A stretch of 10,282 nucleotides of DNA, from positions 1 through 10,282 of IMG/VR virus record IMGVR_UViG_2917865565_000003; one strand, 5' to 3'. This DNA comes from a virus (Duplodnaviria > Heunggongvirae > Uroviricota > Caudoviricetes). This document shows positions 342 through 4,325 of the stretch, piece by piece. Position numbers and translations under genes: made by a program. The notes under the pieces are model-generated. The model ran no database searches. It saw only the letters and a list, made by a program, of their open reading frames with translations, and was not told the origin of the DNA. Positions within the stretch are counted from its first letter, which is position 1, and every line of letters begins with the position of its first letter.

Positions 342-623
342 TCAGGCCTCGAAGAATTCGCCGTTCTTCGGGGCTTTTTCTTTTGTCAGGTAATCGGCAA
401 GCCGCTTAGTCAGTTCAGCCATTTCATCGTCTTCGATTCCGTATTCCAGAACAGCCAGCATCATGCTTACCTGCGAGAAGAAACCATTCTTCCATCGGCT
501 TACCTGGTATTCCGGAACCCCCATCGCGCGAGCGAATGTCTTCTGCCCCATCAGTGCCAGTTTGTTCAGCAAGGCTGACTCGATGCGAGCCGCTTTCTTG
601 CTTTTAGTTGCAATAGTACCCAT
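342..623 (-). CDS. cII: CII-like transcriptional activator (93 aa)
   Basis: Translation contains RIESALLNKLALMG…SRWK…SMMLAVLEYGIEDDEMA, matching lambda CII (…ALRIESALLNKIAMLG…SRWKR…SMLLAVLEWGVVDDDMA, from memory). AAGGAA Shine-Dalgarno upstream; position between cro-like gene and O. Confidence 0.85.
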   Translation of the reverse strand: MGTIATKSKKAARIESALLNKLALMGQKTFARAMGVPEYQVSRWKNGFFSQVSMMLAVLEYGIEDDEMAELTKRLADYLTKEKAPKNGEFFEA

Positions 624-739: not shown

Positions 740-970
740 TTAAGCGGCCATTAATTCAGGCCAGATGCTTTCCCAATCAACCGGATGAAGGTCTTTGCGA
801 GTCACTTCACCATTGCTGAACTTCTCAATCAGAACACAAAGTGCTGCGCCCAATTCATGATTACGGCTAAGTGCTTTCCTCAAATAGCCGATAGAAGTTC
901 CGCACTTGGTGGCAAATTCTCTCTGCTCTTCCAGTGAAAGGGAGTTCAGATACAAGCGGAGTTCTTCCAT
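740..970 (-). CDS. Cro-like HTH regulator (76 aa), functional Cro assigned by position
   Basis: Divergent from cI across the operator region and followed by nutR then cII. AAGGAG 7 nt upstream of ATG 970..968. Putative HTH around EQREFATKCGTSIGYLRKAL. Not lambda Cro by sequence. Confidence 0.65.
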   Translation of the reverse strand: MEELRLYLNSLSLEEQREFATKCGTSIGYLRKALSRNHELGAALCVLIEKFSNGEVTRKDLHPVDWESIWPELMAA

Positions 971-1002: not shown

Positions 1003-1031
1003 AGTTTACCTGTAGGTAAAAAGCAAATCAA
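1003..1031 (-). promoter_or_regulatory. pR-like promoter for cro/cII/O: -35 TTGATT (1031..1026), 17-bp spacer, -10 TAAACT (1008..1003)
   Basis: Hexamers read on the minus strand; the -10 overlaps operator 1005-1020 and the -35 overlaps the degenerate site. Confidence 0.55.
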
Positions 1032-1060
1032 TACCCATAGGTTATTTACCGGCAGGTAAT
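1005..1060. promoter_or_regulatory. OR operator cluster: TTTACCTGTAGGTAAA (1005-1020), degenerate AATACCCATAGGTTAT (1030-1045), TTTACCGGCAGGTAAT (1045-1060)
   Basis: Palindromic 16-bp sites between the divergent cro-like and cI starts. The same consensus recurs at OL (2172-2187, 2197-2212). Centre-to-centre spacing of the first two sites (25 bp) equals that of the two OL sites. Confidence 0.7.
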
Positions 1061-1081
1061 CAAAGATAGAATTAAATCATG
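1042..1081 (+). promoter_or_regulatory. pRM-like promoter with leaderless cI start: -10 TAGAAT (1067-1072), weak -35 near 1042-1049, cI ATG at 1079
   Basis: Only 6 nt separate the -10 from the cI ATG and there is no Shine-Dalgarno upstream (GAATTAAATCATG), implying a leaderless mRNA as in lambda pRM. Confidence 0.5.
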
Positions 1082-1765
1082 GATAAATACGAACAAAGAC
1101 GACTAAGGCTGATAGAGATAAGAGACCGATTCTGTAATGGAAAGGCCTCAGAGTTGGCTCGTCGAATAGAAAGGGAACCATCATACGTTTCCAGAATGCT
1201 GTATCCGGAAGGAAAAAGCGGAAAAAAACGCATTGCTGACGATATGATGGAACTAATTGAAAAATCTTTTAATCTCCCACGCGGATGGATGGACATGCTT
1301 GTAGATGGTAAAGCTGGAGCTACAGACCATCTTGAGTTTGCGGGTAACGTTCGTGCGGGTTTTGTTCCGGTAATTGGTGAAGCCGTTTTGGGAGTTGATG
1401 GCTCAGTGGATATGATTGAATTCAGATCCGGTTGGTTAAGCATCTACAGCGGCGATAAAGATGCTTACGGTCTGAAGGTTAAGGGTGACAGCATGTGGCC
1501 AAGGATTCAGTCAGGAGAATATGTTGTTATTGAACCAAATACGCCAGTACATCCAGGTGATGAAGTCTTTGTAAGGACCAAAGACGGTCACAACATGATA
1601 AAGATCATGAACAAAACAAGAGACGGTGATTATCAGTTTAGTAGCATAAACAGTGATCACCGCCCAATCACTCTTCCTGTTGAAGAAGTTGATAAAATGC
1701 ATTTTGTTTCAGCTATTGTGAAACACACCAGGTACGTAGACCAGGACGATCTGCCAAAAGTTTGA
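1079..1765 (+). CDS. cI: CI-type prophage repressor with C-terminal S24 (LexA-like) autopeptidase domain, 228 aa
   Basis: Divergent from the cro-like gene across the operators. C-terminal half contains GDSMWP (Ser nucleophile motif) and a downstream Lys region (NMIKIMNK), typical of LexA/CI self-cleaving repressors. N-terminal domain is unlike lambda CI. Confidence 0.85.
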   Translation: MDKYEQRRLRLIEIRDRFCNGKASELARRIEREPSYVSRMLYPEGKSGKKRIADDMMELIEKSFNLPRGWMDMLVDGKAGATDHLEFAGNVRAGFVPVIGEAVLGVDGSVDMIEFRSGWLSIYSGDKDAYGLKVKGDSMWPRIQSGEYVVIEPNTPVHPGDEVFVRTKDGHNMIKIMNKTRDGDYQFSSINSDHRPITLPVEEVDKMHFVSAIVKHTRYVDQDDLPKV

Positions 1766-1779
1766 GGATAAAGCAGCAA

Positions 1780-2076
1780 ATGTTTATACCCGGCATAGTA
1801 GTCGCTGTTGTAATCATCTGCTTCATATGGGCACAGTTATCTCCTGTAAGCTCTAAGCATACAGCTGAACTCATGAGGAAGAAGCACCTTATACATGAGG
1901 CAGAATCGATAATTAAAAAGTTCAAAGGCATGTCATACGACGACATGTCATCAGAGCAGATTGCTATGTATAAATGCGCCATTGAGCGCCTTGACTACTT
2001 AAACGGACTCAAACCCAAACACACCCCAGTAGAATCAAAATTGCCGCAATGGCCAAGCAATCCAAATAGCTTCTGA
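1780..2076 (+). CDS. Small single-pass membrane protein (98 aa from ATG 1780), hypothetical, in the rex position
   Basis: Same frame as track ORF 1762..2076, whose TTG start overlaps the cI stop. ATG at 1780 with GAGGA at 1764-1768. One hydrophobic helix FIPGIVVAVVIICFIWAQL, then a charged soluble tail. Followed by an intrinsic terminator. Confidence 0.6.
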   Translation: MFIPGIVVAVVIICFIWAQLSPVSSKHTAELMRKKHLIHEAESIIKKFKGMSYDDMSSEQIAMYKCAIERLDYLNGLKPKHTPVESKLPQWPSNPNSF

Positions 2077-2087
2077 CATCTCCTTTC

Positions 2088-2109
2088 AGCCCGCAAAGCG
2101 GGCTTTTTT
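2088..2109 (+). terminator. Rho-independent terminator ending the cI operon
   Basis: Stem AGCCCGC / GCGGGCT with AAA loop, followed by TTTTTT (2104-2109). Confidence 0.75.
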
Positions 2110-2129
2110 ATATCAATCCAAAAAATTAA

Positions 2130-2214
2130 TTACCTGAAAATTCAAGCAGGTAAACTCTCACATCAATTTTATTTACCTACAGGTATAGACAGCAGTTTTA
2201 CCTGTAGGTATATT
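2130..2214 (+). promoter_or_regulatory. OL/pL: operators TTTACCTACAGGTATA (2172-2187) and TTTACCTGTAGGTATA (2197-2212); pL -35 TAGACA (2186-2191), 17-bp spacer, -10 TATATT (2209-2214); extra half-site pair TTACCTG (2130-2136) / CAGGTAA (2147-2153)
   Basis: Same operator consensus as OR. Promoter hexamers overlap the operators and point toward nutL and N. Confidence 0.7.
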
Positions 2215-2442: not shown

Positions 2443-2769
2443 ATGGATGCACAAACACGCCGCCGCGAACGTCGCGCAGAGAAACAGGCTCAATGGAAAG
2501 CAGCAAATCCCCTGTTGGTTGGGGTAAGCGCAAAACCAGTTAACCGCCCTATTCTCTCGCTGAATCGCAAACCGAAATCACGAGTAGAAAGCGCACTGAA
2601 TCCGATAGACCTTACGGTGCTGGCTGAATACCACGAACAGATTGAAAGCAATCTGCAACGTATTGAGCGCAAGAATCAGCGCACATGGTACAGCAAGCCA
2701 CGGAGTGAAATGGGTGTGACTTGTGTTGGTCGCCAGAAAATGAAATTAGGCAGCAAACCACTTATTTGA
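2443..2769 (+). CDS. N: Antitermination protein N (108 aa)
   Basis: MDAQTRRRERRAEKQAQWKAANPLLVGVSAKPVNRPILSLNRKPKSRVESALNPIDLTVLAEYH… is essentially lambda N. AGGAG at 2431-2435. The track ORF starting at 2311 is an upstream in-frame extension through the leader. Confidence 0.9.
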   Translation: MDAQTRRRERRAEKQAQWKAANPLLVGVSAKPVNRPILSLNRKPKSRVESALNPIDLTVLAEYHEQIESNLQRIERKNQRTWYSKPRSEMGVTCVGRQKMKLGSKPLI

Positions 2770-2780
2770 GAGGAATTAAT

Positions 2781-3404
2781 ATGTCATCAATCCGCTTAAC
2801 AACGAGAATGAAAGAGGAAATCGCTCGTAACGCTTTAATTAAGTCTGGGGTTTTCACTGAACTTGAAGAAGTAACAAAGTTAAAGAACCAGCTTGCACTT
2901 GACGCCAGAGTTATTGCGTTTGGCGGTAAAAAGAAAACTGAGGAAGTGGATCAGTTATCATCCAAGTTGGTAGCTATAAGTGAAGAACTTGAAAAGATGG
3001 GATGTTCATTTTACTCATACGATGTTCGTTCTACTTCAATTTATCTGACTGTATCTGGCAGAAGGGTTGGATGGCATTCATATGGGAAAGACGGCAACGG
3101 CGAAGATATATTGCTCCCTACTCCAACCAAAGATAAATGCATGTTTGACGCAGAACACGAAATAACAAAAAGGTTTGATGAAATCTGCGCATTGCAACAA
3201 AACCTTGAAGCCTTGAAAAAGGATATCGAATCAAATGTATGGGCTGCTTTGAACTCAGTCACAACAGTTAAGCGACTTATTGAAGTTTGGCCTGAAAGCA
3301 AAGAATTGCTACCAAAAGAAGCAGATAAAGCAAGTACAGCACTTCCTGCTTTACGGGTAGAAGATTTGAATAAGATGATTGGACTTCCTTCCGAGGCCGC
3401 ATAG
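2781..3404 (+). CDS. Hypothetical protein (207 aa from ATG 2781), unknown function
   Basis: ATG 2781 with GAGAGGA upstream, 11 nt after the N stop. Same frame as track ORF 2721..3404. Predicted largely helical with charged stretches. No motif I recognise. Confidence 0.6.
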   Translation: MSSIRLTTRMKEEIARNALIKSGVFTELEEVTKLKNQLALDARVIAFGGKKKTEEVDQLSSKLVAISEELEKMGCSFYSYDVRSTSIYLTVSGRRVGWHSYGKDGNGEDILLPTPTKDKCMFDAEHEITKRFDEICALQQNLEALKKDIESNVWAALNSVTTVKRLIEVWPESKELLPKEADKASTALPALRVEDLNKMIGLPSEAA

Positions 3405-4078: not shown

Positions 4079-4219
4079 ATGCAATATGCCATTGCAGGGT
4101 GGCCTGTTGCTGGCTGCCCTTCCGAATCTTTACTTGAACGAATCACCCGTAAATTACGTGACGGATGGAAACGCCTTATCGACATACTTAATCAGCCAGG
4201 AGTTCCAAAAAATGGATAA
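4079..4219 (+). CDS. cIII: CIII (46 aa), C-terminally shortened relative to the 54-aa lambda CIII
   Basis: MQYAIAGWPVAGCPSESLLERITRKLRDGWKRLIDILNQPGVPKNG then TAA; matches lambda CIII residues 1-46. AAGGAG at 4067-4072. Not in the ORF track (under 60 aa). Confidence 0.85.
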   Translation: MQYAIAGWPVAGCPSESLLERITRKLRDGWKRLIDILNQPGVPKNG

Positions 4220-4325
4220 AACACTTATGGCTATCCAGACTAAATTCACTATCGCCACTTTTATTGGCGATGAAAAGATGTTTCGTGAGGCCGTCGAAGC
4301 CTACAGGAAATGGAGGTCAAAATGA
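4212..4325 (+). CDS. kil: Kil-like host-killing protein (37 aa)
   Basis: MDKTLMAIQTKFTIATFIGDEKMFREAVEAYRKW… matches the lambda Kil N-terminus (MDQTLMAIQTKFTIATFIGDEKMFREAV…, from memory). Start overlaps the cIII 3' end in another frame, as in lambda. Confidence 0.7.
   Translation: MDKTLMAIQTKFTIATFIGDEKMFREAVEAYRKWRSK

What the first reader, a model, noticed from the sequence alone, without database searches (positions are those of the whole stretch)
1780..2109. Unassigned membrane protein co-transcribed with cI in the rex position
Immediately after cI, overlapping or closely following its stop and before a strong intrinsic terminator and OL/pL, lies a 98-aa protein with one N-terminal transmembrane helix and a charged soluble domain. 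In lambda this slot holds rexA/rexB, an abortive-infection system expressed in lysogens from pRM, and in other lambdoid phages it carries unrelated exclusion genes. A gene here is expected to be expressed in the lysogen and is therefore a prime candidate for a prophage-encoded exclusion or abortive-infection factor. I do not recognise the protein.
Basis: partly seen in the sequence, partly recalled or inferred. Interest (0 to 1): 0.75.

Follow-up and report, generated by a model that had tools for sequence, protein, structure and literature searches.

The report
Unknown membrane protein gene behind cI
A real but uncharacterised 98-residue membrane protein gene sits right behind the prophage repressor gene cI, and its distant relatives sit in the slot where phage P22 keeps its superinfection-exclusion gene sieA, so it is a well-founded but untested candidate for a new phage-exclusion protein.

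Summary
cI is at 1079-1765. A 98-codon ORF (1780-2076) starts 14 nt after the cI stop, preceded by GAGGA. A strong terminator follows at 2088-2110, then OL/pL and N. The module is that of phage mEp043 (98.8% identity).

The ORF is a real gene. All 35 copies examined are intact, pN/pS is 0.28, and homologues at 29-43% identity keep the length, the N-terminal transmembrane helix and 13 invariant residues. It matches only PHROG 10450 (function unknown). Pfam, NCBIfam, PADLOC, PDB and fold searches gave nothing. PGAP leaves it unannotated in most E. coli genomes.

New here: the family occurs in two settings. One clade lies directly after mEp043-type cI genes (cI 84% identical, the ORF only 36-43%). 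The other abuts ejection gene 16 of P22-like prophages, convergently, in the position and orientation of P22 sieA; none of those loci carries sieA. The family is not homologous to SieA.

Best reading (about 0.5): a lysogen-expressed, single-pass inner-membrane protein that acts as a superinfection-exclusion factor, probably at DNA entry. No function has been tested. It would be a new variant of a known kind. Interest is moderate.

The parts
342..623 (-). cII gene (93 aa)
   Evidence: Pfam Phage_CII E=4e-30. Not part of the conserved module: it is swapped in several loci.
740..970 (-). cro-type repressor gene of the immunity module
   Evidence: phrog_35 E=7.5e-16. It is 99.6-100% identical in all 35 loci that carry the ORF.
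1006..1059 (.). OR operators (three TTACCnnnnGGTA palindromes)
   Evidence: Pattern search: 14 matches in the window against 1.0 expected, clustered here and at OL.
1045..1072 (+). pRM-like promoter (TTTACC-16-TAGAAT). Its -10 ends 6 nt before the cI ATG, which implies a leaderless cI mRNA as in lambda.
   Evidence: Consensus scan. The promoter assignment is inferred from position.
1079..1765 (+). cI repressor (228 aa, S24 autopeptidase C-terminal domain)
   Evidence: Peptidase_S24 E=1.4e-17 and phrog_4. 98.8% DNA identity to mEp043.
1765..1769 (+). Shine-Dalgarno GAGGA for the ORF, overlapping the cI stop codon
   Evidence: Read from the sequence. Homologues all have GGAG at a similar distance.
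1780..2076 (+). ORF98: 98-aa single-pass membrane protein, PHROG 10450, function unknown
   Evidence: It is intact in 35/35 copies, with ATG in 27 and GTG in 8. pN/pS is 0.28.
1783..1839 (+). Codons for the N-terminal transmembrane helix (residues 2-20)
   Evidence: Mean KD 2.55. There are no charges on the N side and 4 K/R in the next 15 residues, which predicts N-out/C-in. AF2 places helix 5-47.
2088..2110 (+). Intrinsic terminator ending the cI-ORF98 transcript (the timm equivalent)
   Evidence: It is invariant in 35 copies. An equivalent terminator is present in L052.
2130..2214 (+). OL operators and the pL promoter (TAGACA-17-TATATT at 2186-2214)
2443..2769 (+). Antiterminator N (lambda type)
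   Evidence: Pfam N36 E=1.5e-26.

Best explanation
ORF98 is a genuine prophage accessory gene. It is transcribed with cI in the lysogen and encodes a small single-pass inner-membrane protein. I consider it most likely a superinfection-exclusion factor that acts at the cytoplasmic membrane, at or just after DNA entry of incoming phages, without killing the cell.

Shown: the gene is real and conserved. It lies 14 nt after cI, with its own SD and no intervening signal, and is closed by a strong invariant terminator before OL/pL. It has one N-terminal transmembrane helix followed by a helical hairpin of about 75 residues with invariant S24, H27, K34, I38, E40, A41, M56, Q60, C66, A67, L71, W91 and P92. 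Homologues occur only in two prophage slots: after mEp043-type cI genes, and convergently abutting ejection gene 16 of P22-like prophages, where P22 has sieA.

Inferred: (1) Expression from pRM and pRE as a cI-ORF98 bicistronic message. (2) N-out/C-in topology from the positive-inside rule, so the conserved domain faces the cytoplasm. (3) An exclusion function, from occupying two independent slots that otherwise hold lysogen-expressed anti-phage genes (rexAB/bstA; sieA), from not co-occurring with sieA in the loci examined, and from diverging much faster than the linked cI. (4) Target: most plausibly the inner-membrane stage of DNA delivery, for example the gp16/gp20 conduit of P22-like podoviruses or a host inner-membrane factor that such phages need. 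In a lambda-like siphovirus such as mEp043 this would be exclusion of a different phage type.
For: Position and signals.

Identity of the module: mEp043 at 98.8%. It is present in 52 of 5426 E. coli genomes, always single copy and chromosomal. It always travels with the same cro/cI, while cII, O/P and the genes after N vary.

Coding evidence: 35/35 intact copies and pN/pS 0.28, against 0.10 for cI. The family alignment has 13 invariant columns.

cI-linked relatives: L049/L051 and L052 have cI 84% identical, but the downstream gene only 36-43% identical, with the same order cI-ORF-(terminator)-OL-pL.

Gene-16-linked relatives: L006, L008, L009, L012 (phage N7), L013-L019, L053 and L054 all end 4-76 bp from the stop of P22-type gene 16, convergent with it. 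P22 sieA has the same position and orientation. None of these loci contains a SieA homologue. Their gp16 proteins are of at least four types, only 28-35% identical to each other.

[quoted passage not shown] The cI-N interval is a hotspot holding rexAB and bstA, and it shares the highly transcribed repressor promoter (PMC8585504).

Topology and fold.
Against: There is no functional, expression or localisation data for any member.

No similarity to any known exclusion or defence protein was found. hhalign against P22 SieA gives probability 0.3%. PADLOC, Pfam, NCBIfam, PHROG, PDB and Foldseek give nothing meaningful.

Guilt by position is weak evidence. The same slots also carry genes with other roles, and other lambda lysogenic-conversion genes such as bor and lom are not anti-phage (my own knowledge).

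A cytoplasmic-facing domain is not the obvious geometry for blocking a periplasmic conduit.

Consensus scans found no clear promoter upstream of the gene-16-linked members, so their expression in lysogens is assumed, not shown.

One member (L007) lies in an atypical context next to Hcp/Tlde1 genes.

mEp043 already carries Cor.
Confidence: 0.5

Rival explanations
1. It is a lysogenic-conversion or phage-housekeeping membrane protein with no anti-phage role. For example, it could modulate a host inner-membrane or membrane-associated factor (protease, transporter, stress or division machinery), or fine-tune lysogeny or induction. It would be carried behind cI simply because that is a well-expressed insertion point.
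For: The function is unknown and no defence-family match exists. The conserved domain is predicted to be cytoplasmic, a geometry used by small phage regulators of host proteins. In several P22-like loci the gene lies downstream of, and co-oriented with, the lysogeny-maintenance repressor mnt, as it lies behind cI here. That is compatible with a lysogeny-linked role.
Against: In many gene-16-linked loci there is no mnt/arc nearby, and gene 16 is the only constant neighbour. The window already has cIII and Kil. Very fast divergence relative to cI (36-43% against 84%) fits conflict-driven evolution better than a housekeeping interaction with a conserved host protein. Both slots are best known for anti-phage cargo.
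Confidence: 0.3
2. It is an abortive-infection effector. The single-pass protein would oligomerise into a membrane lesion or pore when triggered by an infecting phage, depolarising and killing the cell as RexB is thought to do.
For: It is in the same slot as rexAB. It is a small membrane protein. One family member gave a weak hit to a PADLOC '2TM effector' model (E=0.01, 1 of 10 members).
Against: It is a single gene with no sensor partner in either context. It has only one transmembrane helix, followed by a soluble, conserved, charged domain. The PADLOC hit is non-significant and not shared by the family. The family sits where sieA sits, and SieA is an entry blocker, not an Abi system.
Confidence: 0.12
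3. It is not a functional gene: a chance ORF or a decaying remnant in the cI 3' region. This would explain why PGAP leaves it unannotated in most genomes.
For: PGAP annotates nothing there in 38 of the 40 listed E. coli genomes.
Against: All 35 copies are intact, pN/pS is 0.28 and polymorphisms are enriched at third positions. SD and start are conserved across the family. Homologues at 29-43% identity keep the same length, transmembrane helix and motifs in unrelated genomic contexts.
Confidence: 0.03

Closest known systems
P22 SieA (superinfection exclusion protein A; types A, B and C; Leavitt et al. 2024, PMC10883804)
   Same: Both are small inner-membrane proteins encoded by a single gene in a prophage. 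The gene-16-linked clade of this family occupies the same position and orientation as sieA, convergent with and abutting ejection gene 16, and was never found together with sieA. Both are carried by Escherichia and Salmonella P22-like prophages.
   Different: There is no sequence relationship (hhalign probability 0.3%). SieA has 162-164 aa or more, three to four predicted transmembrane segments and a FxRYPxEAxxFNK motif. This family has about 100 aa, one transmembrane helix and different invariant residues. The window's member is not in a P22-like virion gene cluster at all; it lies behind cI of a lambda-like phage.
Lambda RexA/RexB
   Same: Same slot: directly downstream of cI, co-transcribed from the repressor promoter and closed by a terminator before OL/pL. 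Both include a membrane-located component.
   Different: Rex is a two-gene sensor-effector system, and RexB is a polytopic membrane protein (my own knowledge). Here there is one gene with one transmembrane helix and no similarity. An Abi mechanism is not indicated.
BstA of Salmonella prophage BTP1 (PMC8585504)
   Same: A single gene downstream of the prophage repressor, highly expressed in lysogens. The locus is conserved while the flanks are mosaic.
   Different: BstA is a large soluble protein that localises to phage replication sites and causes abortive infection. There is no similarity, and ORF98 is a small membrane protein.
HK97 gp15, T4 Imm and lactococcal Sie2009-type entry blockers
   Same: They are small phage-encoded membrane proteins that block DNA entry at the cytoplasmic membrane. 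HK97 gp15 and the Tuc2009 and TP-J34 proteins are discussed in PMC10883804; T4 Imm is cited from my own knowledge.
   Different: No family match was found in Pfam or PHROG searches of 14 members. Genomic location and predicted topology differ. The resemblance is only at the level of protein class.
PHROG 10450
   Same: Full-length match, E=1.8e-54, residues 1-98 of 98. This is the family's existing catalogue entry.
   Different: The PHROG carries no functional annotation, so it adds no functional information.

Membership tests
P22 SieA family (types A-C) | Detectable sequence homology to SieA, including the conserved FxRYPxEAxxFNK motif | tested here: not met
   hhalign of family profile A1 against P22 SieA gives probability 0.3%, with 9 aligned columns inside a transmembrane segment. 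tblastn of SieA against all loci finds only P22 itself. The motif is absent from alignment A2.
P22 SieA family (types A-C) | Polytopic inner-membrane protein with three or four predicted transmembrane segments and about 160-200 aa | tested here: not met
   One hydrophobic segment (residues 2-20) in 98 aa, and the same in all family members. SieA features are taken from PMC10883804.
P22 SieA family (types A-C) | Located between genes 16 and 9 of a P22-like prophage | tested here: inconclusive
   Met by the distant clade of the family. Not met by the window's gene, which lies behind cI.
P22 SieA family (types A-C) | Blocks DNA injection by P22-like phages; escape mutations map to gp16/gp20 | not testable with these tools
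   Requires plating, K+ efflux and escape-mutant experiments.
Lambda RexAB abortive-infection system | Two adjacent genes (RexA sensor plus polytopic RexB) downstream of cI | tested here: not met
   Only one ORF lies between the cI stop (1765) and the terminator (2088). No Pfam or PADLOC match to Rex proteins at E<=1.
Lambda RexAB abortive-infection system | Position: co-transcribed with cI, ending at a terminator before OL/pL | tested here: met
   14-nt gap after cI, terminator at 2088-2110, OL/pL at 2130-2214. Co-transcription itself is inferred.
Known anti-phage defence proteins (PADLOC-DB v2) | Significant match to any defence-system HMM | tested here: not met
   No families match the window protein. 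One of 10 members gives E=0.01 to a generic 2TM effector model.
PHROG 10450 (function unknown) | Full-length HMM match | tested here: met
   E=1.8e-54, residues 1-98 on profile positions 1-98 of 98.
Prophage 'moron' / lysogen-expressed accessory gene (functional class) | Not needed for lytic growth; has its own or a repressor-shared promoter and a terminator; mosaic distribution independent of the flanking genes | tested here: inconclusive
   The terminator and repressor linkage are shown. The family occurs in two unrelated phage contexts and next to at least four gp16 types. Dispensability and expression were not tested.

The most novel reading that the evidence does not exclude
The family is a fourth class of occupant of the sieA locus, structurally unrelated to SieA. 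It would be a single-pass, C-in inner-membrane protein that blocks the ejection-protein (gp16/gp20) DNA conduit of P22-like podoviruses from the cytoplasmic face. One clade would have been captured by a lambda-like siphovirus immunity module and placed under pRM, so that a siphovirus prophage specifically excludes podoviruses. The very fast divergence relative to cI would reflect an arms race with the hypervariable ejection proteins.
Probability: 0.25. Interest if true: 0.65.

Novelty: new variant of a known kind. Interest (0 to 1): 0.5.

Why it matters
If ORF98 excludes phages, it adds a new, very small, single-gene exclusion family, and it has an unusually clean experimental handle. mEp043 is a cultivable K-12 phage, and the N7 homologue gives a second test case.

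It would help explain what protects the roughly two-thirds of P22-like phages that lack sieA (22 of 66 carry it, PMC10883804).

It would also show that the same exclusion gene can move between the two classic lysogen-expressed slots of lambdoid phages: cI-downstream and gene-16-downstream.

A practical point: the gene is missed by PGAP in most E. coli genomes, so its roughly 1% prevalence is invisible in standard annotation and in defence-system surveys.

If it is not anti-phage, it is still an unrecognised lysogen-expressed membrane protein in clinical and commensal E. coli.

Tried and rejected
- Pfam, NCBIfam, PADLOC and PHROG scans of the protein and of 10-14 family members gave only PHROG 10450 (unknown function). 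All other hits had E above 0.007 and were inconsistent across members.
- A PDB sequence-profile search gave no hits at E<=10.
- The AF2 model is a transmembrane helix continuing to residue 47 plus helix 58-76 (pLDDT 75-77). Foldseek against PDB and BFVD gave nothing below E=0.3, only generic helical hairpins. The afdb50 library was unavailable.
- The direct test of homology to P22 SieA was negative.
- A signal-peptide reading was rejected. There is no positively charged n-region, the hydrophobic stretch is 17-19 residues long, and no AXA-type site is conserved across homologues.
- An i-spanin-like reading (N-terminal transmembrane helix, helices, conserved Cys) was considered and rejected. The gene is not in a lysis cassette, the charge distribution predicts C-in, and it is transcribed with the repressor.
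- A cIII-like FtsH-inhibitor role was considered. The window already encodes cIII, and the gene-16 context does not fit.
- The TTG-1762 start used in the GenBank mEp043 records was rejected in favour of ATG/GTG-1780.
- The search for related loci with the full alignment failed because no conserved stretch was long enough. The GTDB genome scan returned only one close Escherichia copy.
- Literature searches for mEp043 and the mEp phages found no functional study of this gene.
- Consensus promoter scans upstream of the gene-16-linked homologues were uninformative.

Full report
**What is in the window.** On the + strand the window reads as the leftward early arm of a lambdoid prophage.
- cII lies at 342-623 (-) and cro at 740-970 (-).
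- Three operator palindromes and a pRM-like promoter lie at 1006-1072.
- cI lies at 1079-1765, followed by the ORF in question at 1780-2076.
- An intrinsic terminator lies at 2088-2110, and OL/pL at 2130-2214.
- A lambda-type N gene lies at 2443-2769.
- Beyond N come Nmad5, cIII/kil, a Sak4-like ATPase, an SSB-like protein, Abc2, xis and int.

These assignments rest. The immunity module (cro-cI-ORF-OL) is that of phage mEp043 at 98.8% identity. The rest of the window is mosaic, and no complete E. coli genome matches more than about half of it.

**The observation.**
- The cI stop is TGA at 1763-1765. GAGGA lies at 1765-1769 and the ATG at 1780, leaving a 14-nt gap with no room for a terminator or promoter.
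- The product has 98 residues. Residues 2-20 form a single, strongly hydrophobic segment (mean Kyte-Doolittle 2.55). The remainder is charged, with 12 K/R and 9 D/E.
- The terminator has a 7-bp stem with 6 GC pairs and a T run. It folds at -12.6 kcal/mol, z=-3.5, and is identical in all 35 copies examined.
- The stated end, 2109, covers the terminator rather than the ORF.

**Is it a gene?** Yes.
- I recovered 35 copies from E. coli genomes and IMG/VR contigs. All have an intact 98-codon frame. The start is ATG in 27 and GTG in 8.
- Of 21 polymorphic sites, 12 are third positions (p=0.02). pN/pS is 0.28, against 0.10 for the adjacent cI.
- An exhaustive HMMER search of 1.8 billion representatives found homologues at 33-43% identity (E from 8e-18 to 1e-5). 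They have about the same length and the same N-terminal hydrophobic helix.
- A 14-member alignment has 13 invariant residues: S24, H27, K34, I38, E40, A41, M56, Q60, C66, A67, L71, W91 and P92.
- Every homologue begins M/V-[YFW]-I-[PS] behind a GGAG. This fixes the start at 1780 rather than the TTG at 1762 used in the mEp043 GenBank records.
- PGAP leaves the ORF unannotated in 38 of the 40 listed E. coli genomes.

**What it is not.**
- It matches PHROG 10450 (function unknown) over its full length, E=1.8e-54.
- No Pfam, NCBIfam, PADLOC or PDB sequence family matches it or its relatives.
- AlphaFold (pLDDT 75-77) gives one long helix, the transmembrane segment continuing to residue 47, then a turn, then a second helix at 58-76 and a less ordered Pro-rich tail.
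- Foldseek against PDB and BFVD returns only non-significant helical hairpins.

**Comparative context, the main new result.** The family occurs in two settings, and its sequence clusters follow the setting.

(a) cI-linked clade.
- The window type is found in 52 of 5426 complete E. coli genomes. It is always a single chromosomal copy and always travels with the same cro/cI. cII, the replication genes and the genes downstream of N are swapped around it.
- Two further lineages, L049/L051 and L052, have the same cI-ORF-OL-pL architecture; L052 also has a terminator after the ORF, and none is evident in L049.
- In those lineages the cI proteins are 84% identical to the window's. The downstream protein is only 36-43% identical. 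The gene is therefore an old partner of this repressor family and diverges several-fold faster than the repressor.

(b) Gene-16-linked clade.
- In L006, L008, L009, phage N7 (L012), L013-L019, L053 and L054, the homologue lies convergent with the P22-type ejection-protein gene 16. It ends 4-76 bp from gene 16's stop, on the side toward mnt/arc/ant or the tailspike gene.
- That is the position and orientation of sieA in P22.
- None of these loci has a SieA homologue.
- Their gp16 proteins belong to at least four types that are 28-35% identical to each other. One is 74% identical to P22 gp16.
- One member (L007) sits in an atypical, probably degraded context next to gp7/gp20 fragments and Hcp/Tlde1 genes.
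- Among 50,697 deposited phage genomes only mEp043, N7 and HZ41 carry the family.

**Relation to SieA.**
- P22 SieA is a lysogen-expressed, exclusively inner-membrane protein of 162-164 aa with three predicted transmembrane segments. It blocks DNA injection by P22-like phages. Escape mutations map to gp16 and gp20.
- Three SieA types (A-C) share a FxRYPxEAxxFNK motif. Only 22 of 66 P22-like phages carry sieA (PMC10883804).
- The present family is not homologous to SieA: hhalign probability 0.3%, one transmembrane helix, different motifs. It is a different protein occupying the same locus, so I do not file it as a SieA.

**Mechanism.**
- *Shown:* gene reality, membrane anchor, linkage to cI with a shared terminator, the two-slot distribution, no co-occurrence with sieA in the loci sampled, and fast divergence.
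- *Inferred, expression:* transcription occurs from pRM in the lysogen, and from pRE during establishment, as in lambda's cI-rex operon. The -10 of the pRM-like promoter ends 6 nt before the cI ATG, which suggests a leaderless message.
- *Inferred, topology:* there is no charged residue before the helix, and 1-6 K/R follow within the next 15 residues in almost all members. This predicts N-out/C-in, so the conserved helical domain would face the cytoplasm.
- *Inferred, function:* the cI-N interval is a recognised mosaic hotspot for lysogen-expressed anti-phage cargo, holding rexAB and bstA (PMC8585504). The gene-16-proximal slot is the home of sieA. A family found only in these two places is most economically explained as an exclusion gene.
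- *Entry block versus Abi:* I favour an entry-stage block at the inner membrane. The gene stands alone without a sensor partner, its product has one transmembrane helix plus a conserved soluble domain rather than a pore-like architecture, and its positional counterpart SieA is an entry blocker.
- *Consequence for mEp043:* mEp043 is a lambda-like siphovirus with a tape measure protein and Cor. The cI-linked clade would therefore most plausibly act against other phage types.
- *Confidence:* about 0.5 for an anti-phage exclusion role, and about 0.25 for the specific target being the DNA conduit of P22-like phages.

**Rivals.**
- A non-defence lysogenic-conversion or regulatory membrane protein (0.3) cannot be excluded. 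Position is the only functional evidence, and the domain is predicted to be cytoplasmic.
- An Abi pore (0.12) is less likely, for the reasons given above.
- A non-gene (0.03) is refuted by the comparative data.

**Novelty and interest.** The protein family is uncharacterised and unrelated to known exclusion or defence proteins. The kind of thing it most likely is, a small prophage-encoded membrane exclusion protein in a known hotspot, is familiar. I therefore rate it a new variant of a known kind with moderate interest (0.5). The value lies in a sharply testable hypothesis with cultivable phages (mEp043, N7). It also lies in the link between the two classic exclusion slots of lambdoid phages, and in showing that the gene is largely invisible in current annotation.

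Noticed in passing
window 1780-2076; E. coli genomes: NCBI PGAP leaves this conserved 98-codon gene unannotated in 38 of the 40 listed complete E. coli genomes. In one genome with a GTG start (L005) it calls a truncated 67-aa product that lacks the transmembrane helix. The mEp043 GenBank records start it at TTG 1762 (104 aa).
   Followed up: yes
window 1780: The start codon is polymorphic: ATG in 27 copies and GTG in 8 of the 35 examined. GTG starts are also common in the distant gene-16-linked homologues.
   Followed up: yes
L049 4300-5294; L051; L052 1721-2713: Diverged versions of the same immunity module have cI 84% identical in protein, but the downstream gene only 36-43% identical. The accessory gene evolves several times faster than its repressor. 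L049 seems to lack the strong terminator seen in the window and in L052.
   Followed up: partly
L007 4001-4345: One family member (114 aa) lies next to fragments of P22-type gp7/gp20 genes and a T6SS Hcp-Tlde1 pair. This is an atypical and possibly degraded prophage context.
   Followed up: no
window 7203-7847: An isolated 214-aa ORF has an N-terminal Invasin_D4 (Ig-like) domain (E=3.5e-8) and no PHROG match. It is flanked by several hundred bases without long ORFs, in the int-proximal region. It may be a second accessory (moron) gene.
   Followed up: no
window 2781-3404: An Nmad5-family (nucleotide modification associated) gene lies immediately after N (E=3.5e-71). The same arrangement occurs in E. 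coli JNE131328 (L003).
   Followed up: no
window 4079-4325: A cIII homologue (46 aa, phrog_550 E=3e-29) overlaps a 79-aa ORF in another frame, whose C-terminal 31 residues are the Kil domain. The real kil start is probably internal.
   Followed up: no
window 1045-1079: The -10 of the pRM-like promoter ends at 1072 and the cI ATG is at 1079, with no SD. This implies a leaderless cI mRNA, as in lambda. The cI N-terminal domain gives no Pfam HTH hit; only Peptidase_S24 is recognised.
   Followed up: partly
L008, L012, L013, L053, L054: In P22-like loci that have mnt/arc/ant, the family gene is the last gene of a co-oriented string starting with the mnt-like gene, with one or two unknown ORFs in between. 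In N7 no terminator-like site was found between the mnt-like gene and the family gene. This parallels its placement behind cI in the window.
   Followed up: partly
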